The notes beneath the pieces are model-generated. The model ran no database searches and was not told the origin of the DNA. It saw only the letters and a list, made by a program, of their open reading frames with translations. Shown here in pieces: positions 17,410 through 63,660 of a DNA stretch of 64,000 nucleotides. The position numbers and the translations under genes were made by a program. Source of the stretch: the human T2T-CHM13v2.0 reference genome, Homo sapiens; the NCBI RefSeq assembly GCF_009914755.1, contig NC_060947.1. The stretch is one strand, 5' to 3'. The stretch's first letter is position 1. Every line of letters begins with the position of its first letter.

Positions 17410-18622
17410 CATTTTTTAATTACTTTTTTTTCCTCAGACTGTATTTTCAAATAGGTGGTTTTAGCTCACTGATTTCTTTCTCTGCATGATCCGTTCTGCA
17501 GTTAAGAACCTCTAGTGAATTTTTCAGGTCAGCAAATGCATTCCATAGTTCAACAATTTATTTGATTTTTAAAAAATGATTTCAATTTCTTTGTCAAATT
17601 TTTCTCCTAAGTTTCTGAATTGCTTTTCTGTATTATCTTGAAGATTATCGAGTTTCCTTCAAACTGCTATTTTGAATTTTTGGTCGGAGAGCTCACATTA
17701 AGGTCAGTCACCAGATCCTTGCTTTGACTGTGGAGGTCACAGTTCCCTGTTTTCTTTTGTTTCCTGTGAATGTACGTTTATTTCTTTGCATTGATAGATT
17801 AGTTATTTATGCCAGTCGTCTCTGTCTGGCTTGTTTTGGTTTTTATTGCATTTGTTTGCTAGAGATTCGTTTTAGTTTTTCAATTTCTTTCTCTGTACAC
17901 CTGCCCCTCCCCCACCCCACCACTGGGTTACTACCTCCTTTTTGGCACTACATGATGCCTTAAGCCCAGGTTTGCCTAAGCTTTCATAACAGATCCCAGC
18001 ACTGCTCATCCCCAGTGGTGGAGGTTCTAAATGGGATAACCTGATAGTGTGGGAAGGCTGGCTGGGGGTTGTGCCGAGTGGGCCTGTGGAATGAACCACT
18101 TACAGCATAGTGCTGCTGAATAGCCACTCTGAATGGTGTCCTTTTTGTCTGAGTAACACAGCAGAGTTCTCAGGGCTGTGGGTGATAATGTCCCACTTCC
18201 ACCCTTTGTGCCTGGCTGTCCTCAGGGAGATTTCTTTTTATGGGCACTCATGATGCATCCTGTGGGTTAAGGCAGGGACGGTTCTCCTGCCAAGAACTCA
18301 AGATGGTGGAGGAGCTGGTTGTCTGCCTCAATCTCAGGTATTCCAGTGTAGAACACATAAGTCTGGGGAAATTTTTCTGCATCATTGGTGCAGGGCAGAT
18401 TGTGGTTGATGTGTTGCAGACATAGAAATCCAAATCTCTGTCTGCTTGGATTTTTTTTTTTTTTACTTCTCTGTGCCCCTGGAACTGCCTAACCTTCATA
18501 TTTGAGTTCTCAGATATTGCTGGTGACAATCTCAACACTGTACGTTTGATTTAGGTTTTCTCAGGGAGGGAGGGTGAGTGAAGCCAGCTTGCTTCTATCC
18601 TGCCATTTTGGAACTGGAAGTT
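17410..18622 (-). mobile_element. Old L1M 5' region fragment
   Basis: Antisense ORF1-like AT-rich sequence at 17420-17850; ends in GCCATTTTGGAACTGGAAG (L1 5'-end YY1-like motif). Confidence 0.55.
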
Positions 18623-20689
18623 CATCTTTTTTTGATCTGTTGATTTGATAACCAAGAAGGCTGCTAAGTAGCTAATGGGCAAGTAGCTTCTCAGATGATA
18701 TAGGTTTGATTACCTTAGAGCCACATAGTTCATTTTTTTTTTCTTTAAATGTGCTGAATGCTACTCCTGTGTTAATTTTCTTTGTGCTTGTCTCTGAACC
18801 ATGTGAAACTGCTTTTCCTGGATTTTCCATCTTGCACTATCATTGCTCTCTGTTACAAGATGCTGCAAAAGGTTTTGCTAACAAATTACTTCTTGTGTTC
18901 TATACAGAGATAGTCCTGGGTTCATGAGTGCTACTCACACACCCAACTTCTCTCTAATGATGCCCACTGATGCCCTATTAACCCACAGAAGATGCTTTTT
19001 TTATATGAAGTGTGATGGCAAATTAATAGATGGCAAATTGATTTGCAAAAGTTTCTCCAGGTGACAAGGGAGAAGCTTGTTTTCTTACAAGATGATCTCA
19101 CACCTGCCCCTGTGTGGTCTTCCAACTCTACACCCTGCATGAGAGAAAACCTTCCATTGGCCTCACTCTTGAAATAGATAGGGCAGATACCCCACTGGGG
19201 ATGCCTGCAGGAGAGTTTCCTCCATGCCTTCCTAGGAACCAGAATAAGGAGATTAAGGTCCAGATTGTGAGAGCAAACCGTCCTTCATGAATGAACACTC
19301 AGTGCACCAAAACCTCACTGACTTTTCTAAGGGTAGCCGATGTTCTCCGAAATTCTGATTTACAGACAACTGAAGGCCCCCAAGGGCCTCCCAAGAGAAA
19401 GGTAGACTATCACATGTGAACACAGAGGCCTATGGGACAACTTTTTGTCAGAATTTTAAAGGCAATGTGGGACTGTTTCTCATAAGTTCTCACTTAAACA
19501 TATTGTCCTGCCTCATATGGACTATGTCTATCTCTTCCCTATTTGCAAGTTAGAGAGAAAGAGGATCTCCTGTCACCATGGTCTTGGCTGTTTTCTTATC
19601 ATACCTCCCAAAAGAAAGGCCTGAAATGGACAATTTGTTTCTGGTTTTGAAGAGTGAGGCTATTGAGCCATGCTGAAGTAAAAAGGGGAAGGCAGCTCCT
19701 GCCTTTGGTCTGGTGGATCATCCCTGCTTACCTGCCTGTACCCCTTGCACCAACCTCTAGCTGTCTGCTTTTTCCAGATCTGTCTGGTCCTGGTTTGCAC
19801 ACCTGTTCATGGGGCTCTCCAGAACTGCCTTTCCACGATGGCTCTGCTTTGTGTGCAAAAGGAACAGTACTGCCCACCAGGAGGAGGATAGGCCAGAAAC
19901 CCAGAAAGATTTCTAGAAAGAGGCTATAACTGGAGCAGAAGTAGGGATCAAGGGATGGAGGGAAGGGGTCTGTTTTCAACTACAGAAGTAACATCCAGGG
20001 TGTCAACCACGTTTCTATGGAAGTGTGCATATGTGTGTGCACACACATATACAGCTGTAGATTAGCCCTAGCTGCTGTGAAAGTAGACTGTGCTGTGTGT
20101 CTGGTATTTTTCAAACAAGTATCACAGTGACGGACAAGGTTCTGTCTACTTTCCTAACCTTCATTTCTCTTCTTTCTTCATTCACCTCCATCTCCTTCTC
20201 CTTTCTCCTTATCCTTTATTTCTTCTTCATCATTATCTTTGTGTCTTTGTCTTAATCTTTTTTTCTCTCTATTTTACCTTCTTCCTCTCTTTTTCTTCCT
20301 CCTCTCTTTTTTACCCTTTTCATTCTCTGTTAACAGCCCCAACCCTCTTGCAGTTATCCACATAGGGCCTTCTTCCAGCTATCCCCACCCCTCCAGATAT
20401 CTATATTCAGCTAATCCTTGCAGAGTCCTTCCTGCATTATGTCTCTTCTTTTCTGTGGCCATCATTTTTCTGGCTGACTCTAAGTCTCCTCAATCTGAAC
20501 CAGTTTCCATGATTTTCCCAACCTCAAATGTTCCCAATATTTTTATTAAAGTAATCATTGTAAACCTTCTGGTCCTTTGCACACATCAGCAAAGTTCTTT
20601 ACAGGGCACCTCTGGTAACTTATCACCTTTTGCTTTTAACTCTTTCTTTTTTCTTTCTTTTTTTTTTTTTTGCTCGTTTTAGAATGTTC

Positions 20690-20695
20690 TTTATT
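20690..20695 (-). terminator. Polyadenylation signal AATAAA of the retrocopy
   Basis: TTTATT on the + strand, 18 nt from the start of the poly(A) remnant at 20671. Confidence 0.85.
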
Positions 20696-21879
20696 CTGAC
20701 AGTTGTTGGACAAATATAAGGCATGTTCACAAGTATCTGAAGTTATGTACAAAACACACTCATTCGACAGATATTCCTATTCTCCTTTTGTACTTGCTGC
20801 TGCAAACTGATCTTTCTGCATGTTAACACCCATAGCGCTCAATTCTTATGGATATGCAGAGAATGTTTTGGGGACCACCGTGGAGAACCTGTTTCAAACT
20901 AAGACGTAAGCTTCTTTGAACTAAGTCACTAAGACATCAGAACTCACGGTGAACAAAGGCAGAGGAAGGTGACCAAATCAGCTCATAATCTCATGACTCT
21001 AAGTTTACAGTGGAACAAAGAACACATTGAAAAACATTTTTTGATCCTTCATGTTGGAGAGAAATGGAATGTGTCCAGAATTCATGGTTCTACATTTATC
21101 ACTGTCTAAAAGTCACAAAACAATATCTAATTTTTTCATGGTTTCAAATGCAGTTACAGTTTTGTTCTTAGGCCACAGTACAAGATTGCATGCATTACTT
21201 TACACAAATGTCAAACACAGAATGATTGTAACACAGACAGCTCAGGGTTGTCTAAAGACACAGCTTCTCTTTTTGTGGTGGGGTCGGGAAGGAGAATGAT
21301 GGTGGCCATTTCCATACACAGCCTGTTGTGTGCTCAGCACGGCTGGATGCGGATCCCAAGAACTTGCTGACTGACTCACAGAAGAGGACAGAAGCTGCTG
21401 AGGAGGGCAGCAGAGTTCAAAGAGCAGTCTCCAACTGGGGGCTGGGATGACGGACACAGAGCCTCGATTCCAGGGGGAAAAAGTCTTAGTCAATACTAAT
21501 TAAAAACTGTTAACGATTTTTGAAAATCAGATTACATCTATAAAAGATGAAAAGTAAACACTTAAAACAATCTATTGAGGGGAACATAAAATAATAAAAA
21601 ATGAAATGCAGCTGGGATTTCACAAAGAGGAGATTTGAATCTTTTGGTCTCAATCAGCCAATATTTTAACATTAACTATAAATTATTAAAATGTAGTTTG
21701 CTTATGCCCATTCTTAAAATGCAGAATCTTTGAGGAAAAATATAGGCATATTTTCAGGAATACAGACTCTTGTAAAAAATTTTAAAAGTCAGTATCATCT
21801 CTCTTGCGGAGCTACTGAACAGGTTTTTCAAACACAAAAGGGGAACAAACATGGGGCGCTTGAATATGTTAAAAATTCT

Positions 21880-22168
21880 TTTTTTTTTTGAGACAGAGTT
21901 TCGCTCTTGTTGCCCAGGCTGGCGTGCAATGGCGCAATCTCGGCTCACCACAACCTGCGCCTCCGAGGTTCAAGCAATTCTCCTGCCTCAGCCTCCTGAG
22001 TAGCTGGGATTATGGGCATGCACCACCATGCCTGGCTAATTTTGTGTTTTTAGTAGAGACGGGGTTTCTCCATGTTGAGGCTGGTCTCAAACTCCTGATC
22101 TCAGGTGATCCGCCCGCCTCGGCCTCCCAAAGTACTGGGATTACAGGCGTGAGCCACCGCGCCCGGCC
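21880..22168 (-). mobile_element. AluS (AluSp-like), full length, in the retrocopy 3'UTR
   Basis: Starts GGCCGGGCGCGG on the minus strand; diagnostic GTTTCGCTCTTGTTGCCC and GGTTTCTCCATGTTG; TSD GAATATGTTAA(A/G)AATTCT at 21862-21879 and 22169-22186. Confidence 0.92.
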
Positions 22169-22568
22169 GAATATGTTAAGAATTCTTATCACTAGAATAC
22201 TGCTTTGAGGCGCTCACAGTACTTTCCAAAAGAAACTACCCACCTCAAAGAGCCCTGCACAGCCCAAGCGACCCATGAGTGTGGTAGCCATCATTTTGTT
22301 AGCCACTGCTTGGCCATCATCAAAGTATTCACTCAGAGTGGGGAAATTACTTAATATCAATGATATTAACGATTTCCATGGATTTAGCTTTGTAACACAC
22401 AATGCACAAGGGTCTTCAGATGTTTGCTTTTTACACCAATGGTAGGAAATTGTCATTCTTCCGATTCAACACGCTGGCGGATGACGCTTTAGTGAAGTGT
22501 GACTACCTAGAGGAGCAGGAAGGCGGCTCCCGATTCTCACTGGGCCAGCCTCTTCCAGAAGGTGCAGG

Positions 22569-25500
22569 CTACTCTTCTGACAGGAGATCACAAGTCTGGC
22601 AGGCTGGGCAAGCGCTCTGCCCTTTAAGCCACTGCTTAAAACACCCTTTGTGATACTTGTGCCCACATTTGAGCACACGCACGTTTTTTGATTTGAACAC
22701 CTCGTGACATATTTCACAGGAACTTGCACCCAGTGCAACCCTCACAGGGACATCTTCTGCTTTCTGCCCCTTGGTTTTGGGTGATGGTGCAACAACCGCC
22801 AAGGGTGGGCCCTGGGAGGACCTGGTCACGTGGGCGGCAGAGCTGGGCTCATAAGTCCTCTTGTCCTTTCCTGGGTTTGGCTTTTTCTTTTTCTGTTCAT
22901 CTAGAATGTGTTCTGTCACTCTTTGGACAATTTCATCAATACTCAATCCTGAAAGTGAGTTCTTGTTTTTGCTTCTCACTTTTTTAATAAAACCAGCAAG
23001 CTCAGTGCTGTTGTAACATGGGAATACCACTGACAGGTGCTCAATAATACTATTGAATGGCTTTTTTGGAGACTGGCTTGAACATGCAGCACACCCTGGA
23101 GGAACAGGCTGCTTCTGATCAGCCGCAGGGCTTTGCTCTGACAGAGCTGCCTGGCCAGCCCCTTTTGGCCCTGGCAGCTGAGTGGCTTCAGGCTGAGAGG
23201 GGGGTGGCCCTGGCAACAGTGCAGAAGGAGCCTCCCCTGGGGAATCGCCGGCAGAGAACACACTGGGATCCCTGTGAAGTGCTGCTTGGTTTCCAGTCAC
23301 ATCGCTTGCGGAAGTCATAAACCCTTGGTCATCATGGCCTGAAGACTCAGGGAGTAACTCAGGATGAACCGTGTTACAGGCAGGAAATGAAAGCTCAGAA
23401 ATCTGCACTTTAGAAAGTTCACTGAGCCGAGAACCATTTTTAATTGCCTTAATTTGTTCTTCAAACTGATACTTTGCTTTCTCAGTTTCTTTTGTAACAT
23501 TAGAAAGAAACAATTCCCATGAACATATATCGGACTCCATGTCAGGATATGCTGCAGGATCATGGCTAATCAGCTCCAGCTTCTTCAGATAGGCTTCTGC
23601 TTGTGACTGCATGATCTGTAGCTTATACACTTCACTCTCCTTCCAGTTTTCAAGTACGGATACCTCTGCAGCCACAGCTCTCTGATGACTCTCTTCATAA
23701 TCCTTTTTCCCTTTCTTTATACACTCTTCTATTTTCATTTTCTCGTTTGTAAGTGTGTTGCTGATTTCAAGGGACTGATCCAGATGTAATTCATGTTCCT
23801 TATCATTTCCATCATTTTTCTGGGTATACATTTCATTGGCATTTGAAACCTTTTTAATTTTCTTCTTCAGTGATTTTAGTGTTTTTTGGATTTCTTTTTT
23901 TTCCTCTTGCCATTTTTTAATTTCTCTTTCCAAATCTTGAAGCAACCAATCTAATTCTGTCTTTGATATCTTGTTTTCTTCTAAGTGCCTTTTCAACTTT
24001 TCTTCCAGGTCCCTGGTCTCTTCTAAGCCCTTAAGTTTTATCTGCTCATAATTTTCATACGCTTCTTTAAGTTGGTCTTGTAATACTTGGTACTCCTTTT
24101 CAATCCGTGAAATTTCCCCTTGTTGTTTCTCAAAAGGATTATATGGCTCAGTATTGACTTCTTGGTGTGTTATGTTCCAAGATACCTGTATGGCAACCAT
24201 CTGCACCTGTGGAATGTTTGTTACTGCACTGGTGCTTTCTGGAATTACTTCACATTTGTTGTTAGAATTTCCACAGTGCCCATCTTTTCTGTTAGACTCA
24301 CTCAGGACTGTATGAGCATCACCTGTGCTGCACTGTGACTTTACAGATATTAACGAAGAATCCTCAAGGATCTGTGTTTCGGAGGCAATCTGGTGACCAG
24401 CAGCATTCTCAGCATTCAAATGATGACCCTCAAAATAGGCAGTAGCATTTTTATCTGCTCTGTCATTGGCTACAAAAGACGGCACCACTGGTACTGATCT
24501 TGGTAGCTGATATTCAGGAGAAAGGCTGACCAAGGGTGTATATATGCTGGTGTACTGGGGCAAACCTGGTAACACATTTATGTATGCTGGCGATGTCCGG
24601 GTGTTATCAAATCTCTGGAAAGGAAGATACGTACAGTATCCTGTGACCAAATGGGATTGAGCCCAATAAGTTGGTTTCACATCCTCAAGAACCGGTTTGG
24701 GAGAATTAGAGGAGACTCGCTTGTAATTTGCATCCTCAGAGCCTGGTTTGGGAGAATTAGAAGAGAACCCTTTGGGTTTCCCATCCTCAGAAACTTGTCT
24801 AGAAGAATTATCGGATACTGGTTTGGCCTTCACATCTTCACAAGCTGGCTTGGGAGAATTTGCAGACAAAGGTTTGGGTTTCACATCTTCAGAAGCTGGT
24901 GCTGAAGATGAACCTGATACTGGTTTAGACTTTACATCTGGTTTAAATTCCCTAGCAGCTGAATTAAGTGGTAGTTTAACTTGTAAATACTCTCCTGCTT
25001 TTGAAATGTCTTCTACTTTTGTTTTAATGTTTTTCTTCTTTCTTTTTTTCTTGAGCCGTGATGCAACTTTCTTCAATGCAATACAGTTGTCAATCACAAC
25101 AAAACGGGGACATCCCAAGAGAAAAGATTTTAAACCTCCTGCTTTTTCTAGTATTGGTCGAGTTTCTTCTGGGAAAAACTCATATTCTTCAGAGAACATC
25201 TTGTGACTCATGTCCAAGGGACCATGTTCCTCCAACAACTGAGAGAAGTAATCATATAGAGTTGAACATTTTTGTTTTGGGTTCATGTCCCATAGCTTCT
25301 TATTGCGGACAACATATTCATTACTGTGTTGGTCATAGAGAGCTTCAAATTCTTCTACGTCTTGCCGAAGATGGTCAGGCACTGCAAATGGGCCTGCAGT
25401 ATCTGAATTTTGATTGCTATGGTCTTCACTTGAAGTGATGATCTCATTATTTGGAGTTACTGAAGTTGTTCCAGACCCAACTAACATAGGCTTTGAATCC

Positions 25501-28500
25501 TTTGGTTTCTTTTTCTTGCCTTTGTTTTTCACCTTGGTAGAACTAAACGGTGCTTCGCCACTGTCTTGTTTCCTTAACACAGTACAGCGGCTGTCCATTA
25601 TATCAAAGAATTCATCTAAAGCACTATGTAATGCTGGGAACTTGTCTCTGTGTTCTTCTAGCAGCCATATTAAACAGCGGGCTTCCTTCGATGATGTTGG
25701 CTCAAAGAAATAATCAAGTTGCTTTCCTTCTATAGAGTCTAGTTTGTGACCATATTTCTCATTCCAGAGGAAAGTCATGATGCTAAAATCAAGCTGTTTA
25801 AGAGATGCTTCATACCGAGAAAAGAAAGGTCCTGTGGCATCTAAGCCAAAGCTATTAAGTTTTCGGATCCAGGCGGCTAATTTGGGCTCCACTTCTTTAA
25901 GCTCACTCAAAACATGCAGAAATATTCTTGTCTTTACTCTGTTCTTTTCTTGAATCAAGTGACGAATAACATAGTCCACTGCTTCATTTAGAAAATTTCT
26001 GCTTGAAAAACAGGTTGTATAGTCCTCTGTGCTCAAAACTTTCCAAGAAAGCAATTCTTTGAGAAGCGTGGCTGTATTCCATATGCCGGATTTAATCTTG
26101 TCAGCATACTGCTTTATACACTGTAGAATTCTGTCATCAAGGAACTGACAATGCTGAACATTGTCTACAGTTTCTTTCTGCTCTTCGTTTTTGGGTGGAT
26201 TACTTTCTCTTAAGTCCTCCTCCATTCTTTCTTGTGCTAATTTTTTTGCTTCTTTTTTTTGGATCTTTCTCTTCAATTTTTTGTCTTCTTTCAGTCTTAG
26301 TTTCTCTAGGCTAGAACATTTCTGTTTCAGAATAGGTCTTGGAGGAACCTTTTCTTTTATGACCTTGTGTTCAAATTCACATTTAACTTGACCACCACTG
26401 CTGAAGATGATAATCTTAGAAATGACACCTTCACAGTCAGGGGTAAGACATATTCCTTGTAGAAAATCCTTGTCAATTTTATCATTAAAGGTTGTGGTTT
26501 TTAACTTCTTCCAGCAATTCATGTGAAATTCTATTTTACAGTACTGGCAACAGCTGATGCGTATAAAACCCTTAAAGTCTGGATCAGTTATGTATATCTG
26601 GATCTTAGAATATCCACAGCACTTCTGATAGCAACAAATGGCATCTGGCACTGGAGGGAACTTGCATTCTTCAACAAATTTCTCTAACAGCATCTTTATT
26701 TTTTCTGGCTGAGACTCTTCAATAATCACATTACTTGTGGGCCAAGTTAACACTCCAGGAAGACGATAAATCAAGGTTCTTGCTTTCTCAAAGTGATTGA
26801 GAGCTTCTAGAAATCTGTTTTTTTTCAAATATACTTTTCCAATTCCACAGTAGGCCAAGCAATCAAGTCCCTCATTGTGGTAGTGTTCAATAATCCTCTT
26901 AAACTGGTTTTCAGCTTCAGATAGTTCTTCAGGCTGTCCTATTCCAAGGAGTGAAATGGCAAGTCCATAGACAACCAAGACATAGTTAATCATGGCCAGA
27001 TTCAATTGCTTTATTTTTTGAGGATCTAAACCATTCAGCAACTCTGTAAAGGCATGTGCGGCACTGCGGCAACGCTGCTCCAATAAGGCTGTATAGCCAT
27101 CTTGAATTAAGCTTCTCAGCATTGTCATTATATTAGCAAAATCCTGGTGTGCACCTCTGGAAGATTTAGAAAACTGTTTCTCCAAGATGTTCTTCAAATC
27201 TGCTGGTAAAGTCAATTGTGAACTAGAACTGAACTTTTCTGATTCATTGTTTCGAGATTTTTGTTTTCCTTTATGTTTCGGAGGCTGACTTGATGGTGGT
27301 GAAAATTCAGGATGACAGTCACAATCATCTACCATCAATGCCTCATCCATCACCTTTAGATTCTGATTACCACCGTTAGCCATTTCGTGATTAATTTTTC
27401 TGAAATCTCTTTCCTTCTCCACAAAGTTAAGTGAAGTACTAAATACAGGTGCTGATAAACTCCTAGGTGTGTAGGCCCTGTTTTCATAAAAGGCTTTAAT
27501 TGGATTCTTATTTGCTGTTCGACCTTGTAGGTCTTCTATTTGTTTTTGTAACTTTACATGCTGCTGAATTAGATCCTTGATTCCCTCAGGGTCATTTTTA
27601 CAGAGTTTTTGAGCTGTTATGTTTGCTTGCAGGGCCCAGTTATATTCCCCCAGCATAGAAAGAGCATCACAATAACGATAATGACCCTTTGGCCAAGTGT
27701 TCTTCAGAATAGTGGCTCTCTTTCCATCACCAAGTGCATTTCTAAACTGTCCAGTACGAAGAAAACAAAGAGCTCGGTTACCATAAAGAAGGTGGTTTTC
27801 AGGTCTATATTCAATGGCTCTGGTGTAATAGATAATAGCTATATCAAATCTTTCTTTGGAAAACTCTTCATTTCCTTTCATTTTCATTAGTTCTCCTTGC
27901 TCTATACAATCCATACAACTTTGGGTTTTAAGTTCTTCAAGCAAATTGCAGTCTTCCATTACAATTTTAGTTATGTGGTACTTGTATTCAGTAAAGAAAA
28001 TACTTAACATAGGCCAACAATTGTCAATTGATCCTAATTTAGTTAGAATTGTTACATCGCCTGCATATTTTATCCAATTCAGAGCTTCTTCCATTGCCAA
28101 GATTTTATTTTCTATTTTATAACCAATTCTCAATAAGCCTCCAATAAGGAGTGAATCATTAGCAGCTTTCTTTGCCAAATCCACAATATCTTCCATCAAC
28201 TCAAGATGTTGTAATCTCTTCAAATTTATCTCGGAAGCACGTGAATTGTTGGCGTCCACACAGGGATGCAATCGTGATATTACAGAACTGTTTTGATGTT
28301 GAAACAGAAGTGGCCAGAAGATGTTTATTTTAATGGCATCACAATAATCTTGCAGGACAGAAATTGGTTTACTACACCATATACTGCAGATGTCAAATTC
28401 TAAATTCCTCTCACTTTGGACATAATCTTTATATTGCTTACCCACCCCATCACAGTAAAGCTGAGTCACACGAACATAATCATCGGTCATAAATTCAGCA

Positions 28501-28556
28501 GCAAAGACACAATCGTCCACGTAAGGGCAATCTTCTAACAAGGCATAATCCGCCAT
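22569..28556 (-). CDS. TTC3-like E3 ubiquitin ligase ORF (TPR repeats, PAM2 motif, coiled coil, C-terminal RING-H2). 1995 aa from the strong-Kozak ATG at 28556; frame open upstream to ATG 28670 and GTG 28856
   Basis: The 2095-aa ORF in the track is collinear with human TTC3 as I recall it (DNFAEGDFT...; TPR KMKGNEEFSKERFDIAIIYYTRAI; RING CEICHEVFKSKNVRVLKCGHKYHKGCFKQWLKGQSACPAC at 22718-22599). Translation is not demonstrated. Confidence 0.75.
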   Translation of the reverse strand: MADYALLEDCPYVDDCVFAAEFMTDDYVRVTQLYCDGVGKQYKDYVQSERNLEFDICSIWCSKPISVLQDYCDAIKINIFWPLLFQHQNSSVISRLHPCVDANNSRASEINLKRLQHLELMEDIVDLAKKAANDSLLIGGLLRIGYKIENKILAMEEALNWIKYAGDVTILTKLGSIDNCWPMLSIFFTEYKYHITKIVMEDCNLLEELKTQSCMDCIEQGELMKMKGNEEFSKERFDIAIIYYTRAIEYRPENHLLYGNRALCFLRTGQFRNALGDGKRATILKNTWPKGHYRYCDALSMLGEYNWALQANITAQKLCKNDPEGIKDLIQQHVKLQKQIEDLQGRTANKNPIKAFYENRAYTPRSLSAPVFSTSLNFVEKERDFRKINHEMANGGNQNLKVMDEALMVDDCDCHPEFSPPSSQPPKHKGKQKSRNNESEKFSSSSQLTLPADLKNILEKQFSKSSRGAHQDFANIMTMLRSLIQDGYTALLEQRCRSAAHAFTELLNGLDPQKIKQLNLAMINYVLVVYGLAISLLGIGQPEELSEAENQFKRIIEHYHNEGLDCLAYCGIGKVYLKKNRFLEALNHFEKARTLIYRLPGVLTWPTSNVIIEESQPEKIKMLLEKFVEECKFPPVPDAICCYQKCCGYSKIQIYITDPDFKGFIRISCCQYCKIEFHMNCWKKLKTTTFNDKIDKDFLQGICLTPDCEGVISKIIIFSSGGQVKCEFEHKVIKEKVPPRPILKQKCSSLEKLRLKEDKKLKRKIQKKEAKKLAQERMEEDLRESNPPKNEEQKETVDNVQHCQFLDDRILQCIKQYADKIKSGIWNTATLLKELLSWKVLSTEDYTTCFSSRNFLNEAVDYVIRHLIQEKNRVKTRIFLHVLSELKEVEPKLAAWIRKLNSFGLDATGPFFSRYEASLKQLDFSIMTFLWNEKYGHKLDSIEGKQLDYFFEPTSSKEARCLIWLLEEHRDKFPALHSALDEFFDIMDSRCTVLRKQDSGEAPFSSTKVKNKGKKKKPKDSKPMLVGSGTTSVTPNNEIITSSEDHSNQNSDTAGPFAVPDHLRQDVEEFEALYDQHSNEYVVRNKKLWDMNPKQKCSTLYDYFSQLLEEHGPLDMSHKMFSEEYEFFPEETRPILEKAGGLKSFLLGCPRFVVIDNCIALKKVASRLKKKRKKKNIKTKVEDISKAGEYLQVKLPLNSAAREFKPDVKSKPVSGSSSAPASEDVKPKPLSANSPKPACEDVKAKPVSDNSSRQVSEDGKPKGFSSNSPKPGSEDANYKRVSSNSPKPVLEDVKPTYWAQSHLVTGYCTYLPFQRFDNTRTSPAYINVLPGLPQYTSIYTPLVSLSPEYQLPRSVPVVPSFVANDRADKNATAYFEGHHLNAENAAGHQIASETQILEDSSLISVKSQCSTGDAHTVLSESNRKDGHCGNSNNKCEVIPESTSAVTNIPQVQMVAIQVSWNITHQEVNTEPYNPFEKQQGEISRIEKEYQVLQDQLKEAYENYEQIKLKGLEETRDLEEKLKRHLEENKISKTELDWLLQDLEREIKKWQEEKKEIQKTLKSLKKKIKKVSNANEMYTQKNDGNDKEHELHLDQSLEISNTLTNEKMKIEECIKKGKKDYEESHQRAVAAEVSVLENWKESEVYKLQIMQSQAEAYLKKLELISHDPAAYPDMESDICSWELFLSNVTKETEKAKYQFEEQIKAIKNGSRLSELSKVQISELSFPACNTVHPELLPESSGHDDQGFMTSASDVTGNQAALHRDPSVFSAGDSPGEAPSALLPGPPPSQPEATQLPGPKGAGQAALSEQSPAADQKQPVPPGCAACSSQSPKKPFNSIIEHLSVVFPCYNSTELAGFIKKVRSKNKNSLSGLSIDEIVQRVTEHILDEQKKKKPNPGKDKRTYEPSSAAHVTRSSQGPPLAVVAPSPKTKGQKAEDVPVRVALGASSCEICHEVFKSKNVRVLKCGHKYHKGCFKQWLKGQSACPACQTCDLLSEE

Positions 28557-28589
28557 AGTGAAATCTCCCTCAGCAAAATTGTCCGTGAT

Positions 28590-28900
28590 GCACAAGTCAC
28601 GCACACACGGAGGGGTGTGGAAGGCCCCGCTCCCCTGGCATCTCGGCTGCAGCGGGACCAGGTAACACATCCGGGAGCCCGGCCGCGCGCCGGGTGTGCA
28701 CTCACCCGGGCCTGCCGCCCGCGAGCCTGGGACGCAGGCATCCGCCGCCGCCGCCGCCGCCACCGCCGCCGCCGCCGCGGCCGCCGCCGCAGCAGCCGCC
28801 GCCGCCGCCGCCGCCGCCGCTGCTGCCGCTGCCGCTTCCGCCGCCGCCGCCGCCACCTCCGGCCCTCTACGTCAGCGGACGGTGGGAGGGAGCGAGTGCT
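28590..28900 (-). promoter_or_regulatory. CpG-island-like 5' leader of the retrocopy with a CRE-like site (TGACGTAG, 28874-28867)
   Basis: Very high CpG density against CpG-depleted flanks; TGACG half-site near the 5' end. Confidence 0.6.
28743..28853 (-). repeat. Interrupted (GCG/GCN)37 trinucleotide tract, reading A5-E-A24-V-A6 in the TTC3 frame
   Basis: Read directly: CCG runs interrupted by CAC, GCG, GCA, GCT and TTC on the + strand. Confidence 0.95.
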
Positions 28901-29829
28901 TTTAACTGTTTCGGTGTCAATACTGACCACAGTCATTATTTTCTCCGGCTGTACTTTAAAGTCTTAATGGTTGAAGCCATGTATCCTTTGCCCACAGACC
29001 AGAGGAAGGGGAACCAGGTTCTTTCAGGAAAGTGCATGGGGGATGCCTCTCTCTCATCATGTCCCCTGACTCCCAGGTGTAATCATAATCTCCTCATGGA
29101 AGTGCCAGGCACATAGAGAGTGCTCTTCCTGCTGCCTCCACTCCTGCTAGACAGAGCCCTGTCAAGGTCATCCTAAGGGCTGGGATCCACTAACAGCTTT
29201 GACCTTAAAGCAGAGTCTGATATTGGGGATGTCATTTCTTCACTCTGATGTACTAATTTTTTTTTTTATCTATACGCTGATGAGAGGCTGCTCAGACACC
29301 TGCAAATTAGCATCACACTCCCCTAGGTTCTCTAGCAAGATATTCTGGGAGGAAAACCTCTGAATCTTATTTCTACCTGTTGCTCAAGGAAGGGACTGTT
29401 TCCAAAGAAAATCACAGTCGTATACAGGGGAGCTTTTCTGTGTCCCTTTTTCTCCTTTGTTCCTTTTCCCCTCTCTCTCTTTTAATGGCACCCATTTCTT
29501 CCCATCACTTAGAATCACTGAGAATCTTTTTTTACCCTGGCTTATAAATTGTGTAGAATTCCTGTAAAGTATGGTGCTCCTTTGTCTGTTTCCATTGTCT
29601 CTGACCTAATTTTTGACTGACTGGCCATTTACCTGATCCACTTTAAAAGCCAGGAGAACTGTGTTCTCATTTCAGAAGAAACTGTGTTACCCTGGCCAGT
29701 TTTCTTCCCTTTTCTGGGATTCATTTCATCTGTAAAATGGGGGGCGGGGGTTGACCATCCTGGGTTCTATCTGGAGGTCGATGGGAGTCAGAGAGAGAGC
29801 TCTGACATGGTGATGCAGGGCCTTGAACT

Positions 29830-29910
29830 CCACTCACAGCTCTGCTGCTAACCTAGCATGTGATTTAGTTCTAGTCCCTTTCCACTTCTGAGCCTCAGTT
29901 CCCCATCTAA
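29830..29910 (+). mobile_element. MIR core fragment
   Basis: CTCTGCTGCTAACCTAGCATGTGA...CTTCTGAGCCTCAGTTCCCCATCT; a second MIR-like piece at ~29700-29742 (CATCTGTAAAATGGG). Confidence 0.6.
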
Positions 29911-30239
29911 GCAGCCATGACTGACAAGGGAGAAGTCTTAGACTCCCACAAATGAGGACCTTGATCCCCTAACATGACTGTGTGTTCATAAGACCCGTAT
30001 CCTCTGATCTTGAGCAGATAGAGCCTTTTCTTATCCTCTGGATTGCTTCTTGGAAATGGCTGTAGCGAAAGCCTCTTCTTTTGTGCTTGATACTTTATTT
30101 TCCCAGGTAAGCTCCCTCTACCTTTGTCCTGGGGCATGTATTTATGGATATTTTAGTTAGAAAAAGCTATCAATTAGTGTAATTAGCTTATTGTCACCTT
30201 CAATCTTGACCCTCTCCCTGCACTGTCCCCTACCCACCT

Positions 30240-31846
30240 CAGGTTCTCTCTTATTTTAACTTAGTGAGCAGAGCTCCTGGCTGCATCACCATAGCAACCA
30301 GCAGCTAGGACCTATTAAGCCATGATGAGTCATTAGACATCTAAGCTGATTATAGAGTCCAGAATGTTAACTGCAGAAGAGATGCTGAAAGAAGGAAAAT
30401 GAGGCAGATCTTAACCTACAAACAAGTAGACAACAGAGTAGCTGAGTGCTTCAAACTATCCCCGACCTGGATGCCATGGGCGCTATGGGCCTGGGTGTCA
30501 ACACCTTGGCATGTACCCTCAGCCACCAGACCAGAGGGAGGGGCACCAGGCCCATTCTCTTCCCAGGGAAGTAATTCTGGACACCTTCCTGCCAACATGC
30601 TCCAAGTAGATGGATTTGAGTCTGGATTTTTCAATGGGCAGTACCAATTACTGAGTTCATCCTGAGTCCTACTCCTAATCTAGTGACACATTTCCTTATC
30701 TTTCAACTTTCCATAGAAGTTTCTTAAATGAAAAAGGGCATTTTTTTTTTTACTTGTTTGAAACTCTCTTTTCCCAGTCAGTTCCCCTGCTGCCTTGGCC
30801 TGTATTTGTGGCCTGTTAAATTTAAAAGTCTATCAGTTAGTCTAATTAGGATATTCAAATTTTAATTATTTTCCCTTCTCCACATGGGCAGCCACCCACC
30901 CTTCTTTTATTCTCTCTTTTTATTTCATTTAGGGAAAAAAGCTCTTGGCAGGATTGCTATAGAAACCAGCCACCAGGCAGACTAGGCCATTGTGCTTCTG
31001 GACACTGATACTCAAAGCTGATTATGGGTCTGGAAGCTTGCATGGCTGAGCAAGACTGATGGAGTTAAGACAAAGAGGGTCTCAGCTACAGAGAAGGGGA
31101 AAATAAGCACCTCAGAACTTTAGACAAACCTCAGCCCTACCTTTATCTTTGCCCCTGTATGCTTCATGGAAGAAAAAAGTTAGAATGAGGAAGGCTGTCC
31201 CCTATTAAAGATGAATGTCTGGGTTGACATCAGAACTTGTGCCCTTAGGCTAACCCTGCCATGACGACAAACCCACACCTGTGAACATGTCATTTTCACT
31301 GAGTATCCCTAGTTCCTATTAAATTACCTGGCATATACTTAAGGTTCTCATAGTGCTTGGTGCTCAGCAATTCTGTAAGACAGAGCACTACTAGTGAGAG
31401 CACACTGAGACTACCTTGGAACATGAGCAAGTGAAGACTTCCTAACACACTGGATTTTTCTGGGAAATGACACTAATGAAAGCCTCTGCTATGTGCTCTA
31501 AGGCTCCCTGTTTGCAATTTACCTCCCCTGCCTTCTGGCAGTGGTGGTGTAAATGCCTGGTGGAGGGGCTTTGAAAGCTGTTAGTCACTGAAGTACCTAA
31601 GTGTATTAGGCTATTATTGCCTTCAAGGATTTTCCCCTGGTCCCACAATGCACCCCTGTCTACATTAACAGGCTCCCACTCATTTACACTGGGAGAGCAG
31701 TGCTCCTGGACACATTGCCATAGCAACCAGAAGCCAGACAGAGTAGGAGGGTGAGCCAGACATTTGACAGCAAAGGTTAGTGGAGTATCTGTTGGAGAGG
31801 GGCTGACTCTTAGGAGGAAAATACCTTATCTCTCAGCTGCAGAGAA
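30240..31846. repeat. Three diverged tandem units (~670-760 bp spacing), each with an RFX X-box-like core
   Basis: GAGCAGAGCTCCTGGCTGCATCACCATAGCAACCAGCAGC (30266-30305) and GAGCAGTGCTCCTGGACACATTGCCATAGCAACCAGAAGC (31695-31734) match at 33/40 without gaps; a third copy GCTCTTGGCAGGATTGCTATAGAAACCAG lies at 30941-30969. Confidence 0.75.
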
Positions 31847-32228
31847 ATAGGCCACTAGGCCCCTCAGTGTTCCAACACCATCCCCTCCCCATCCTCCATC
31901 CCCATGCCTCCAGATGAGGAGTAGTCAGAATGAGTTTTGTTTTATCTGGAGGCCAAGGCCTGTGTTTTATCAGAATAGGTATCCTTTGCCCCGAAGCCGG
32001 TCAAGGGAACCAGGTACCACATACTTCCTCCTACGCCACCTTGTTACCAAACTAACACCCATGAGTGAACATATGCTCCAAATGTGTGTTCCCATGACTG
32101 CATCTCCTGTGCCTAGAATAGTGTCAAGTATATGGCAGTGCAACTTTCTGCACTTCCCCTGTCTACTCACTCCATTGCAGTTCACACCTTATCATTTGCA
32201 GAATTCCATTTACTACTGGAATACCCAC

Positions 32229-32573
32229 TGTATTAGTCTGTCCTCATGCTGCTAATAAAGACATACCCGAGACTGGACAATTTACAACAGAAAGAGGTTT
32301 AATGGACTTACAGTTTCTTGTGGCTGGGGAGGCCTCACAATCACAGCTGAAGATGAAAGGCACATCTCACATAGTGGCAGACAAGAGAAGAGAGCTTGTG
32401 CAGGGAAACTTCTCTTTTTAAAACCATCAGATCTTGTGAGACTTATTCATTATCATGAAGAACAGCACAGGAAAGAACTGCCCCCATGATTCAATTACCT
32501 CCTAACGGGTCCCTCCCACAACATGTGGGAATTCAAGATGAGATTTGGGTAAGGACACAGCCAAACCATATCA
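32229..32573 (-). mobile_element. THE1 (THE1B/C-like) solo LTR
   Basis: TGTATTAGTCTG...GCTAATAAAGACATACCCGAGACTGG...CCAAACCATATCA; 5-bp TSD CCCAC/GCCAC. Confidence 0.88.
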
Positions 32574-32929
32574 GCCACAGTCTCAACTGATGACACTGAG
32601 AACATGAAAGTAAAGGAATAGCCTTTAAAAACTTCTCACTTCCATGCATCTGCAACTTGATACTCTGCTTTCCCTTTCATCACTATGGATAAACTCTCTA
32701 CATTCCTATGAAAACCCATACCTACCGTTGGCCACTAGATTACACCCCTTCTTGACTATTCAATGCATGGTCCCAGCAATGCTGTCTGTGCTCTTTGCCA
32801 CATCATCAATTTACCTTTATGTACTGGATGATTCCCATCAGTACACAAAGATTCCACAAGTCTCCCTTGCAACAACAACAACAAAACCAACAAGAAAGAA
32901 ACAAAACACCCTACCTTAACTGTACAACC

Positions 32930-33300
32930 CACTCCACCTACTGCATCATCTCTGTACACCAAACTTCCTCAAAAATCATTATGTGGTCTTGATTTGTTCA
33001 CTTATGTACTCTCATTTTTTTCTTGAACCCACCCTAGTCAAGCTTTTATCCCCCACTCCATGGAAATAGCTCAAGGTCCCCAAATAACCTGCATATTGTT
33101 AAACCTAGTGATTATTTCTCAGGCTGGTCTTACTTGACTGAAAAGTAGAATTTGACACAATTGATCACTTCCTCCTCCTTGTAATACTTTCCTCACTTAA
33201 TTTACAGGACATTTCTGTCTCTTGGTTGTGCTTCTGCTTCAGTGTCTGCCATTTTTCAGAGTCATGGCTAGTTACTCCTCACTGCTTTGACCTCTTCACC
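32930..33300 (+). mobile_element. L2 LINE fragment
   Basis: CTCAAGGTCCCC...CTTACTTGAC...ATTTGACACAATTGATCACTTCCTCCTCCTT is the typical L2 RT-region signature. Confidence 0.65.
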
Positions 33301-35945
33301 CTGCTAGAAGCTATTAGTCAAAACATAAGTTTTTATTTAGCCAATTGAAGGTGTGTAACATAGGACTGTGGTTGTCAGAATGGAAACCACTTGGGCCTTC
33401 ATATAGGTGGCTGAAGAAATTTATCCAAGCAAGAGATAGCATCAGGTCCTGGGCTAAGAGCTTTCTGGTTGGGAAAGACCCCCAACACCTGCCTTCATTC
33501 AGTGAGACAATTGTATGACTCACCTGCAGTAATGTGCAGGTTAAAGGTAACGAGTTGAACTTGTAGCTTGCCCCTCTCTCACTACATAAACTCCTTTCTT
33601 CTCTCTGGAAGGAGTTCAGTTTCCAGCAGAGGTGATGACAGATTAACAGATTCCAGTTTAAAAAGTGCTATAACCCTGAAGGGGGTGGGGTATGTTGGTA
33701 GATAAGAGAAGTTAGATCTTTAATAAATCCCACAAATTATTCTGGGCAATTTATTTACTGAGAATTTTTAACTCTCAAGTGTTAAGATTTTCCTAGATAA
33801 TCATTTGTTTAATTCAGGTTTTCAAAAGCATTTACTTCAGACTCCTTTTATTCTCTTAATTTCTTTTCTATTGCTGTTTTAAAAACAAACAAAAAAAATA
33901 CTTAGTGACTCAATTAAAAAATATTATTGGTGAGGGGATGAAGCACAGTTTCAAAGAGTTACAAATTAAAAATATTAATTGGCATCTGAATTGCAAGAAT
34001 CCATTTACCTCCACTCTCTAAGCTCTAATGATGTTTGTGTCCCCAAGTCAAGTTCCAAAGTAACCATTATTCCCAATAGGTAAAATTCCTCTGACCTCTG
34101 GTCCTGTTGAACCTTAAGGCTTACCATAAAATTGCTTCAAATTGCAAGAAATGAGCGTGGAATTCTTCCCTCCCCCTAGCCAAGGCCTGTTCTAGTTACA
34201 ACCAACAGTCGATAAATCCCAGTGCTTCTCCCATAGTCCCAACCCTCTCGTGCACTCTCACTACCTCATTGAGGGCTTTGGAGTTTCCAGGATACAGCAT
34301 ACGAGTCTTACCAAAATCCCAGATGGGGCACCTCTCAGTCATAACTTAAGAAGATGCTCTCAGATCTTGACTCCCAGATTCAGCCCAGACTCACTATGAT
34401 CTTGAAGTGCCTTGTGAACTTTAACAAATGGCCCATCCTGTCCCCAGTCTCTGGTGCATAAACTGTTTCCCACATCAATCACGAGCACAGGTTCTATGCC
34501 ATCCAACACTGCATTGTTCCTTGACATGTTTTTTTTTTTTGTTTGTGCAGTCAACACATAATTGATGAGGCACATTCTACATGACAGGCACTACACAAGA
34601 GACTGAGGGGTGAACTGATTAGCACCCTGCCCCTTTGGTGACCTGTTAAGATATAATAATAATGGTCATACTGAGCTCTGAGAGTAAAATAAAAACAGCA
34701 GTACACTCAGGAGGGGCCAAAAATATTCCATTCCTTCCTTCCCCATCAACTTTTTATTTGTGGATCCTCAAGGCCGAATGATCCTGGAAGACCCCTGTCT
34801 GCATAAAGACATTTATTTGTGGCCTTTCATTTCAAGTAATTGAGTTTTGATATCTATACCAAACAAAGAAACGTCCAGACCCCCATCACATTATAGCTTC
34901 CCCTAAACAGTTGTTTGCAACAAACAGGTTCAGTAAGTGACCAGTTATAAGATTAATATATAAGAAAATAGCTTTCCAGTGACTAAAATCCAGCTGGAAG
35001 GGCAAGGAAGTTTTACTTCATTACTGCATCTCCTAAGAAGCTTACTAAGTCTCTGTTTCCCAAATATGTGAAAAGCAATAAGTTGCTTCTAGGGTAAGAA
35101 GCAATAATGTATGTGTATGGAATGAACTGGCATTCACCTGAAGCTCAATAAAAGTTATTCCCTTCCCTTTGGAAAAAAAAAACCCAGTTCTCAAGGTGGG
35201 ACTACAGAAAATGTTTGCTTTTCATCAATTCTTTAGGTAATTTTGAGCTTCATCTTGGGGCTGAGAATTTGGGTCAGGACCTATTGAGAATAGCCACCAC
35301 TCACCTCAAAAGAGATCACATCAGGAGGTTCATAATCTGTTTCTATCTTTCAAGTATTCTTATTGCTTTTTCACATTTCTCTTTCAGTACCTTACAATGG
35401 AAATATGGGCATTTCATAAAACAGAACGAGATAGTCATGTGCACAGCATTATCAGGGCCAAGCTTTGGAAAAATGGACTCTGATATTCAGGACAATATCC
35501 TTAGCAAAGGGCAATTTTGATTCTCAAACGCGGACCAGCAAAGTGCTTTGCAGTCTAATGATCCAAGCCTACCTCCAGTTTTTCTTTTGACATCTGAAGC
35601 CTTGAACTGATTCCGGTTGCAACCACTTTACAATGAAGGTTTTAAAATCCCTAACACACAATTCTATCAACCCTTACTCTTCAATCAGTCAAGTACCCTA
35701 CGTTTCCAATCCTAGAAATTAGGCTGCCTCCATTCCCTGATATATAGAATGCTTTCAAATTTATAATCCAGTGCCAAGTCTTGCTTCCATCCCTGACTTT
35801 TTTACTTTCTTAAGAATCAGAAACCATGAAGAATTCTGGGCCCCTTGCTGATCAGCACAGTGCTATGAGAATTTCACAAGCCAAGGACAGTACAGATCCA
35901 GAAATCCTGTTTTATAAACTGTGTCAAGATTCAAAGTCCATTTTC

Positions 35946-63419: not shown

Positions 63420-63660
63420 TTTTCTCGTCGCTAGAAGCCCTGCCCTTAGCATTCAGACTTTGGAATGCTACCGATGGGAAGATCACTGAGACTGGGCTGT
63501 ATTGCCCTAGCAACCGCGGAGTGCGCCTGCGCAGTGGCATCCCCAGGCCGACAGCTCTAATTAGGCTTCTGCATCTCAACCGGCCAGACTTTGGATACAA
63601 AACGGCATATCTTCCTTCTCCCTGCCGCTCCCCCAGCGAAACGATTGTGTCGTTCTCTTC
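63420..63660. promoter_or_regulatory. Promoter-like CpG-enriched element with RFX X-box-like site (63501-63514) and NRF1 motif (63522-63533)
   Basis: ATTGCCCTAGCAAC, then TGCGCCTGCGCA after a 7-bp gap; local CpG cluster in otherwise CpG-poor unique DNA. Confidence 0.65.

What the first reader, a model, noticed from the sequence alone, without database searches (positions are those of the whole stretch)
30240..31846. Ancient triplicated unit with RFX X-box cores 1.4-2.9 kb upstream of the retrocopy
Seen: three units with cores ATCACCATAGCAAC (30285-30298), ATTGCTATAGAAAC (30953-30966) and ATTGCCATAGCAAC (31714-31727). Units 1 and 3 align without gaps over 66 bp (30240-30305 vs 31669-31734, 50 matches). 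AAGCTGATTAT is shared by units 1 and 2, and CTCAGCT(A/G)CAGAGAA by units 2 and 3. Each unit's right boundary is a minus-strand acceptor-like site (AG before 30370, 31085, 31836). I recognise no transposon here. Known: the X-box is GTNRCC/ATRGYAAC-like, and RFX2/3 drive spermatid and ciliary genes. Inference: either an RFX enhancer or promoter cluster that the retrocopy could have co-opted, or tandemly duplicated exons of a decayed gene.
Basis: partly seen in the sequence, partly recalled or inferred. Interest (0 to 1): 0.7.

Follow-up and report, generated by a model that had tools for sequence, protein, structure and literature searches.

The report
Old triplicated RFX-site module beside TTC3P1
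Three very old tandem copies of a ~450-base non-coding unit, each with a match to the RFX binding motif, lie 1.4-2.8 kb from the start of an intact TTC3 gene copy on the human X; two of the copies are unusually well preserved, so they likely act as regulatory switches that are older than the gene copy and may now help drive it.

Summary
The repeat is real and larger than reported: three ~400-500 bp units, 51-62% alike, each with an X-box-like core. The whole block has one paralog 237 kb away (85.6% identical) that lacks the TTC3 retrocopy. Against it, the two best-preserved 69-bp windows in 6.4 kb are the unit 3 and unit 1 X-box regions (69/69, 68/69; 1 of 3000 permutations). Unit 2 is at background and its RFX half-site is broken. 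No dispersed family, structured RNA, coding signal or BEX/BGW homology was found. The exon reading is unresolved: one minus-strand acceptor AG is kept in 6 of 6 copies, but no donor is. Best reading (0.55): an old homotypic RFX promoter/enhancer cluster under selection since before the retrocopy arrived, so not built for it; co-option is untested. The retrocopy also carries its own CpG island and an intact ~2000-codon frame with a newly gained start codon. No binding or expression data for the units were available. A mouse ependymal RFX ChIP table lists no peak that I could place there.

The parts
30062..30467 (.). Unit 1 of the triplication; constrained tract 30239-30309
   Evidence: left-out profile hit; 1 difference from the paralog in 30239-30309
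30285..30298 (+). X-box-like site of unit 1: one mismatch to GTNRCC-N2-RGYAAC, perfect RGYAAC half; 14 of 14 identical in the paralog
30755..31251 (.). Unit 2; not preserved above background (58 of 67 in the core)
30953..30966 (+). Degraded X-box-like site of unit 2: RGYAAC half broken here, intact in the paralog; 12 of 14 identical
31474..31935 (.). Unit 3; constrained tract 31676-31825 (145 of 150), including 69 of 69 at 31711-31779
31714..31727 (+). X-box-like site of unit 3: one mismatch to consensus; 14 of 14 identical in the paralog
28978..29061 (.). Partial fourth copy of the unit's far end (matches 30510-30599)
30415..30417 (-). Acceptor-like AG of unit 1, aligned with those at 31085 and 31836 and present in 6 of 6 copies; use as a splice site not shown
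20642..28896 (-). TTC3 retrocopy (TTC3P1) inserted in the block: poly(A) at the left end, open frame 22569-28871, CpG island about 28250-29000
28897..28907 (.). Target-site duplication, right copy (left copy 20631-20641); the paralog holds one diverged copy
17415..33880 (+). Extent of the block shared with the paralog G000:C23:74414800-74424609, excluding the retrocopy and the 32222-32579 insertion

Best explanation
The three units are old tandem copies of one non-coding module, and units 1 and 3 likely still work as RFX-bound promoter/enhancer elements that were under selection before the TTC3 retrocopy landed 1.4 kb away. Shown by sequence, in order: tandem triplication (units 51-62% alike); duplication of the whole ~9.5 kb block to a site 237 kb away (K2P 0.16); insertion of an LTR-like repeat and of the TTC3 retrocopy (dS 0.055 to its parent) into this copy only. 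Also shown: local excess identity on the X-box regions of units 1 and 3. Inferred: the excess reflects purifying selection; the bound factor is an RFX dimer (RFX1/2/3 type) in ciliated, neural or spermatid cells, as the region is CpG-poor; unit 2 is decaying; the original target was a neighbouring gene or an unannotated transcript; the retrocopy, which has its own CpG-island 5' end, would at most use the cluster as an extra tissue-specific input.
For: Top two 69-bp windows in 6419 aligned bases both contain an X-box: 1 of 3000 permutations, 0 of 3000 circular shifts. Pooled cores 192 of 205 vs 5304 of 6214 elsewhere, Fisher P 2e-4. Across six copies 9 of 14 X-box columns are invariant vs 73 of 316 elsewhere. 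Units 1 and 3 match the published consensus with one mismatch and a perfect RGYAAC half; such half-degenerate sites occur in cell-type-restricted targets (PMC3414849, passages). Constraint only after the retrocopy arrived predicts 16.5 differences in the two cores; 4 are seen, P 3e-4. Constraint on one copy only predicts 9.9, P 0.03. Units 1 and 2 fall in the -2300..+1400 window given for human X-boxes if the retrocopy starts near 28896 (PMC5838959, passages).
Against: No binding, chromatin or reporter data. In the mouse ependymal ChIP table (PMC7498320 Table S8, file cut when stored) the only peak listed between Magee2 and Zdhhc15 is 3476 bp from Magee2, which fits a different human X-box at 63501. 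A single 68/69 window is not rare in a blind scan (P 0.19), and three windows of 67/69 lie elsewhere in the block. The cores were first picked for inter-unit likeness, which biases the window branch slightly. Unit 2 shows no constraint. PMC5838959 says functional X-boxes far from a start site are the exception. Gene conversion between the blocks is not excluded.
Confidence: 0.55

Rival explanations
1. The units are duplicated alternative promoters with non-coding 5' exons on the minus strand, left from a lost gene or lncRNA. They would now splice towards the retrocopy and drive the intact TTC3 frame.
For: A minus-strand acceptor-like AG is aligned in 6 of 6 copies (scores 2.9-7.9). Unit 3's constrained tract (31676-31828) nearly fills the span from that AG to about 31668. 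Unit 1's tract ends at a GT donor-like site (30237) kept in both paralogs. The orientation is that of the retrocopy. Its frame has no stop or indel in 1371 compared codons, against 3.5-6.1 stops and 5-9 frameshifts expected under neutrality over 1995 codons.
Against: No donor is kept in more than 4 of 6 copies. The acceptor scores are within the top decile of background AGs at best (model trained on only 35 TTC3 introns). No exon is annotated here. No decayed coding exon could be identified downstream.
Confidence: 0.2
2. The constrained tracts are plus-strand exons of an unannotated isoform of the lncRNA LOC107985664, and the X-box match is incidental.
For: A plus-strand acceptor lies at the left edge of the constrained tract in units 1 and 3 of both blocks (30243, 31672; scores 6.8-8.7). 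There is a strong donor-like site at 30107 (10.7 in both blocks) and one at 31751. The lncRNA spans the window on this strand (annotation).
Against: The listed transcript has no exon in the window. The paralog lies outside that gene yet is likely constrained too. Unit 1 has no donor after the core. No stable or covarying RNA structure.
Confidence: 0.1
3. The units are a neutral relic (an old local duplication or an uncatalogued ancient repeat), and the high-identity patches come from chance or short gene conversion between the two blocks.
For: About 60% identity is what very old neutral copies show (general knowledge). Unit 2 is at background. The motif consensus is degenerate. No mouse ependymal RFX peak could be placed there. 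Dfam could not be searched.
Against: The patches fall on two X-boxes (1 of 3000). 145 of 150 exceeds the 99th percentile of the shuffled maximum. Only two genomic loci match at E<=10, while old interspersed repeats in neighbouring DNA give many hits in the same search. 19 of 19 other pattern hits score <=10 bits against the unit profile.
Confidence: 0.15

Closest known systems
RFX X-box promoter/enhancer elements (GTNRCC N0-3 RGYAAC; RFX1-3 targets)
   Same: 14-bp imperfect inverted repeat with a perfect RGYAAC half in units 1 and 3; locally preserved; within about 1.4-2.8 kb of a likely start site.
   Different: Typical targets have one site within 500 bp of the start (PMC5838959, passages). 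Here there are three paralogous sites inside 450-bp tandem units, duplicated again as a block, with no annotated start at them and binding unshown.
BGW motif of the BEX/TCEAL/ARMCX cluster (PMC1274310, PMC7586669; passages read)
   Same: X-linked, duplicated non-coding motif beside a retrocopy; a precedent for retrocopies co-opting an older regulatory motif.
   Different: BGW is about 60 bp with an E-box and confined to Xq21-22. The units carry an X-box, lie near MAGEE2, and show no homology to 5 BEX-family loci.
Ancient interspersed repeats (MIR/L2 and the like; names recalled)
   Same: Similar level of divergence between copies.
   Different: Six copies at two linked loci and no dispersed copies found.

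Membership tests
RFX X-box element | Match to GTNRCC N0-3 RGYAAC | tested here: met
   Units 1 and 3: 1 mismatch, perfect right half, in both blocks. Window unit 2: 3 mismatches, so not met for that unit.
RFX X-box element | Sequence constraint on the site | tested here: met
   Units 1 and 3 vs the paralog; within-genome comparison only, no other species.
RFX X-box element | RFX binding in vivo or in vitro | not testable with these tools
   Indirect only: the mouse ependymal table lists no peak placeable here; orthology not checked.
RFX X-box element | Position near an active start site | tested here: inconclusive
   1.39, 2.06 and 2.82 kb from the retrocopy's 5' end; no CAGE data; region CpG-poor, obs/exp 0.07.
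BGW motif | Sequence homology to BEX/TCEAL 5' regions | tested here: not met
   Unit profile vs 5 of 19 BEX-family loci: best 4.3 bits; blastn best E 0.013, outside the units.
BGW motif | Internal E-box | tested here: not met
   None near the unit 1 core; two different CANNTG at unrelated places in units 2 and 3.
Dispersed transposable element | Many dispersed copies | tested here: not met
   2 loci at E<=10; 6 exact pattern hits, all in the two blocks, and 19 of 19 others lack the unit body. The search is seed-limited.
Dispersed transposable element | Match to a Dfam/RepBase consensus | not testable with these tools
Duplicated spliced exons | Conserved acceptor and donor on one strand | tested here: inconclusive
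   Acceptor AG in 6 of 6 (minus strand); donors in at most 4 of 6; rival plus-strand sites.
Duplicated coding exons | Conserved frame, codon-patterned change or protein homology | tested here: not met
   Every frame of every unit has stops in the tested spans, and pN/pS scatters from 0.37 to 2.2 on few changes.
Structured non-coding RNA (miRNA, snoRNA) | Rfam match or stable covarying fold | tested here: not met
   No Rfam hit in the units at E<=1; z from -2.2 to +1.2 in 10 folds; covariation term -0.99 kcal/mol.

The most novel reading that the evidence does not exclude
TTC3P1 is a working, ape- or catarrhine-age X-linked retrogene for a full-length TTC3 ubiquitin ligase. It captured an older array of RFX-driven alternative first exons, giving it ciliated-cell, neuron or spermatid expression that its chromosome 21 parent lacks, while the empty paralog 237 kb away preserves the pre-capture state.
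Probability: 0.15. Interest if true: 0.75.

Novelty: new member of a known kind. Interest (0 to 1): 0.45.

Why it matters
It marks an unannotated, likely constrained regulatory cluster next to a 'pseudogene' whose ~2000-codon frame is intact and has gained a new start codon. The empty paralog is a built-in control, so whether a young retrocopy captured an older regulatory module can be tested directly. If the units prove to be only ordinary RFX enhancers, this is one more element of a known class.

Tried and rejected
Decayed coding gene left of the insertion site. Frames read with X at stops gave no Pfam family, no convincing solved structure (best E 0.04), and no genome hit beyond the paralog except one at E 0.19. 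No homolog was found among 637 candidates. The representative search gave 3 hits: a 1477-aa tandem repeat summing weak matches (28.9 bits each) and two short peptides nearly identical to these very human frames. pN/pS showed no coding frame. One search's figures for that flank used a junction 2 nt off and are superseded; the same 2 nt do not affect the identity figures.
BGW/BEX homology: rejected.
Copies near MAGEE2 or upstream of the CpG island taken as PBDC1's: none; only a 21-nt X-box match at 63495-63515.
Structured RNA: rejected.
The bacterial promoter scan does not apply and was not used.
Literature: TTC3P1 appears in 15 papers. Three were read as passages; none mentions upstream elements. 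Searches listed no description of these units or of an intact TTC3P1 frame. Two terms and the mouse gene name were recalled or guessed names. The library lacks most subscription papers, bioRxiv supplements are closed, and the PMC7498320 supplement was cut when stored.

Full report
Observation. The cores, the 50 of 66 gapless match and both shared words are as stated. Left-out profile searches give extents 30062-30467, 30755-31251 and 31474-31935 at 151, 121 and 81 bits. A partial fourth copy of the far end sits at 28978-29061. The acceptor-like AG of unit 1 that is homologous to 31085 and 31836 is at 30415, not 30370.

A paralog that serves as a control. Searching the genome with unit 1 gave the window and one other place, C23:74419182, 86% identical. 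The match extends over window 17415-20647 and 28899-33880 and is contiguous there: the paralog lacks the TTC3 retrocopy and the 32222-32579 LTR-like repeat (family name recalled as MST-like, from no call). An 11-bp target-site duplication flanks the retrocopy (20631-20641, 28897-28907). Identity is 5496 of 6419 (85.6%), K2P 0.16. In a tree of the six units each pairs with its paralog at 100/100, with end branches of 0.06-0.13 and inter-unit branches of 0.3-0.5. The triplication is therefore much older than the block duplication. By recalled primate rates the block duplication is roughly 55-65 million years old and the retrocopy 20-25; these dates come from no call.

Not a dispersed repeat, at the sensitivity available. 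Window 30000-32210 matches only the two loci at E<=10, whereas neighbouring stretches with old interspersed repeats give 15 and over a dozen scattered hits in the same kind of search. A 29-place core pattern has 25 matches with up to 3 mismatches; the 6 exact ones are these units (the pattern was built from them). All 19 others score 10 bits or less against the unit profile. No copy lies near MAGEE2 or in 20 kb upstream of the CpG island that I took to be PBDC1's. Dfam could not be searched.

Constraint. The two best 69-column windows of the paralog alignment are 31711-31779 (69/69) and 30241-30309 (68/69). Both contain an X-box, which happened in 1 of 3000 permutations and 0 of 3000 shifts. 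31676-31825 gives 145/150, above the 99th percentile (144) of the shuffled maximum. Against this: a blind scan reaches 68/69 with P 0.19, three other windows reach 67/69, unit 2 is at background, and gene conversion is not excluded. Four differences in the 138 core bases of units 1 and 3 compare with 16.5 expected if constraint began only with the retrocopy (P 3e-4) and 9.9 if only one copy were constrained (P 0.03). The function is thus likely older than the retrocopy and shared with the empty paralog.

The motif. The published consensus is GTNRCC(0-3N)RGYAAC (PMC5752003 and PMC3414849, passages). Units 1 and 3 differ at one base and keep a perfect RGYAAC half in both blocks; window unit 2 has lost that half, its paralog has not. 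A looser, recalled consensus occurs 6 times in the window vs 4.7 expected, and 4 times in 28.9-35.9 kb vs 0.45. The match means something only together with the constraint. TAATTA words recur at aligned places in units 1 and 2, and forkhead-like words lie about 150-200 bp from each X-box in the window (motif names recalled, short words, weak evidence). PMC5838959 (passages) places functional human X-boxes mostly within 500 bp of a start, permissively -2300 to +1400. PMC4498915 (passages; supplements) found about a third of RFX2 testis peaks in promoters and lists the Pbdc1 synonym (recalled) 2610029G23Rik as ChIP-positive. In PMC7498320 Table S8 (supplement search, file cut) the only peak between Magee2 and Zdhhc15 is RFX1 at +3476 from Magee2. 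That fits a separate human X-box at 63501, 3.4 kb from the annotated MAGEE2 end, not these units. A second peak (RFX1 and RFX3) lies 9.6 kb upstream of Pbdc1, on the side where the human paralog lies; orthology could not be tested.

Exons? A simple splice model from 35 TTC3 introns finds two minus-strand AG positions kept in 6 of 6 copies, plus-strand acceptors kept in 4 of 6 at two positions near the core, and no donor in more than 4 of 6. Scores overlap background. The edge of unit 1's constrained tract fits both a minus-strand donor (30237) and a plus-strand acceptor (30243), which nearly coincide. No coding signal was found in the units or around the empty insertion site, and no structured RNA. 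There is no homology to 5 of 19 BEX-family loci; BGW is described as an E-box motif of Xq21-22 (PMC1274310, PMC7586669, passages).

The neighbour. The retrocopy matches 44 chr21 pieces, mostly at 93-100%. From 40 of them, 1371 codons with both exon ends resolved show dS 0.055, dN 0.026, no stop and no indel. The pairwise ratio of 0.47 does not by itself exclude a neutral retrocopy. A neutral copy, however, would carry 3.5-6.1 stops (P of none 0.03-0.003) and 5-9 frameshifts over 1995 codons, and the frame is open for 2100 codons. The parental ATG reads ACG, but a parental GTG ten codons on reads ATG (28556). A CpG island at about 28250-29000 (obs/exp up to 1.08) came with the parental first exon; the units are CpG-poor (0.07). 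TTC3P1 shows allele-specific signal in iPSC neurons (bioRxiv 10.64898/2026.02.27.708613, passages) and fibroblasts (10.1101/298984, passages). Cross-mapping from TTC3 could contribute (my inference). Such broad expression fits its own island better than an RFX-only promoter.

Verdict. This is a real, old, locally duplicated non-coding module with constrained X-box regions in two of three copies. Most likely it is an RFX promoter/enhancer cluster that predates the retrocopy (0.55); captured minus-strand 5' exons 0.2; plus-strand lncRNA exons 0.1; neutral relic 0.15. It is a new member of a known kind; interest 0.45.

Noticed in passing
window 22569-28871 (-): TTC3P1 has an intact 2100-codon frame; the annotation lists only 22210-24751. 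Parental ATG lost, new ATG at 28556 (1995 aa) and another in frame at 28670. Likely a functional retrogene.
   Followed up: partly
window 28738-28860: A 41-triplet interrupted GCC/CGG-type repeat in the retrocopy's 5' region inside a CpG island, against about 13 triplets in the parent exon.
   Followed up: no
window 63495-63540: Separate X-box followed by a GCGC-rich NRF1-like word (name recalled), 3.4 kb from the annotated MAGEE2 end; a mouse RFX1 peak is listed at +3476 from Magee2.
   Followed up: partly
G000:C23:74414800-74424609 (L004/L005): Empty-site paralog of the block; further pieces match inverted at 74405148-74405671 and 74363932-74364396.
   Followed up: partly
window 34918-35174: About 260 bp ending in AATAAA and an A run, missing between the adjacent inverted paralog pieces and 84% like C23:100137746-100138004; likely a short retro-insertion of a transcript's 3' end.
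   Followed up: no
window 20158-20641 and 28908-29116 (+): A plus-strand frame is open across the empty insertion site in the window flanks (0 stops in 173 compared codons; 1 in the paralog), with no indel over about 500 bp but pN/pS 0.93; unexplained, possibly compositional.
   Followed up: partly
window 29295-29363, 29858-29926, 18157-18226: Further windows of 67/69 identity to the paralog; the first holds an octamer-like word (name recalled).
   Followed up: no
G000:C11:67187179-67187887: An older, partial TTC3 retrocopy, 81-84% identical.
   Followed up: no
window 21873-22174: Alu-like insertion in the retrocopy's 3' part, the source of the sub-threshold SRP and mir-1268 Rfam matches.
   Followed up: no
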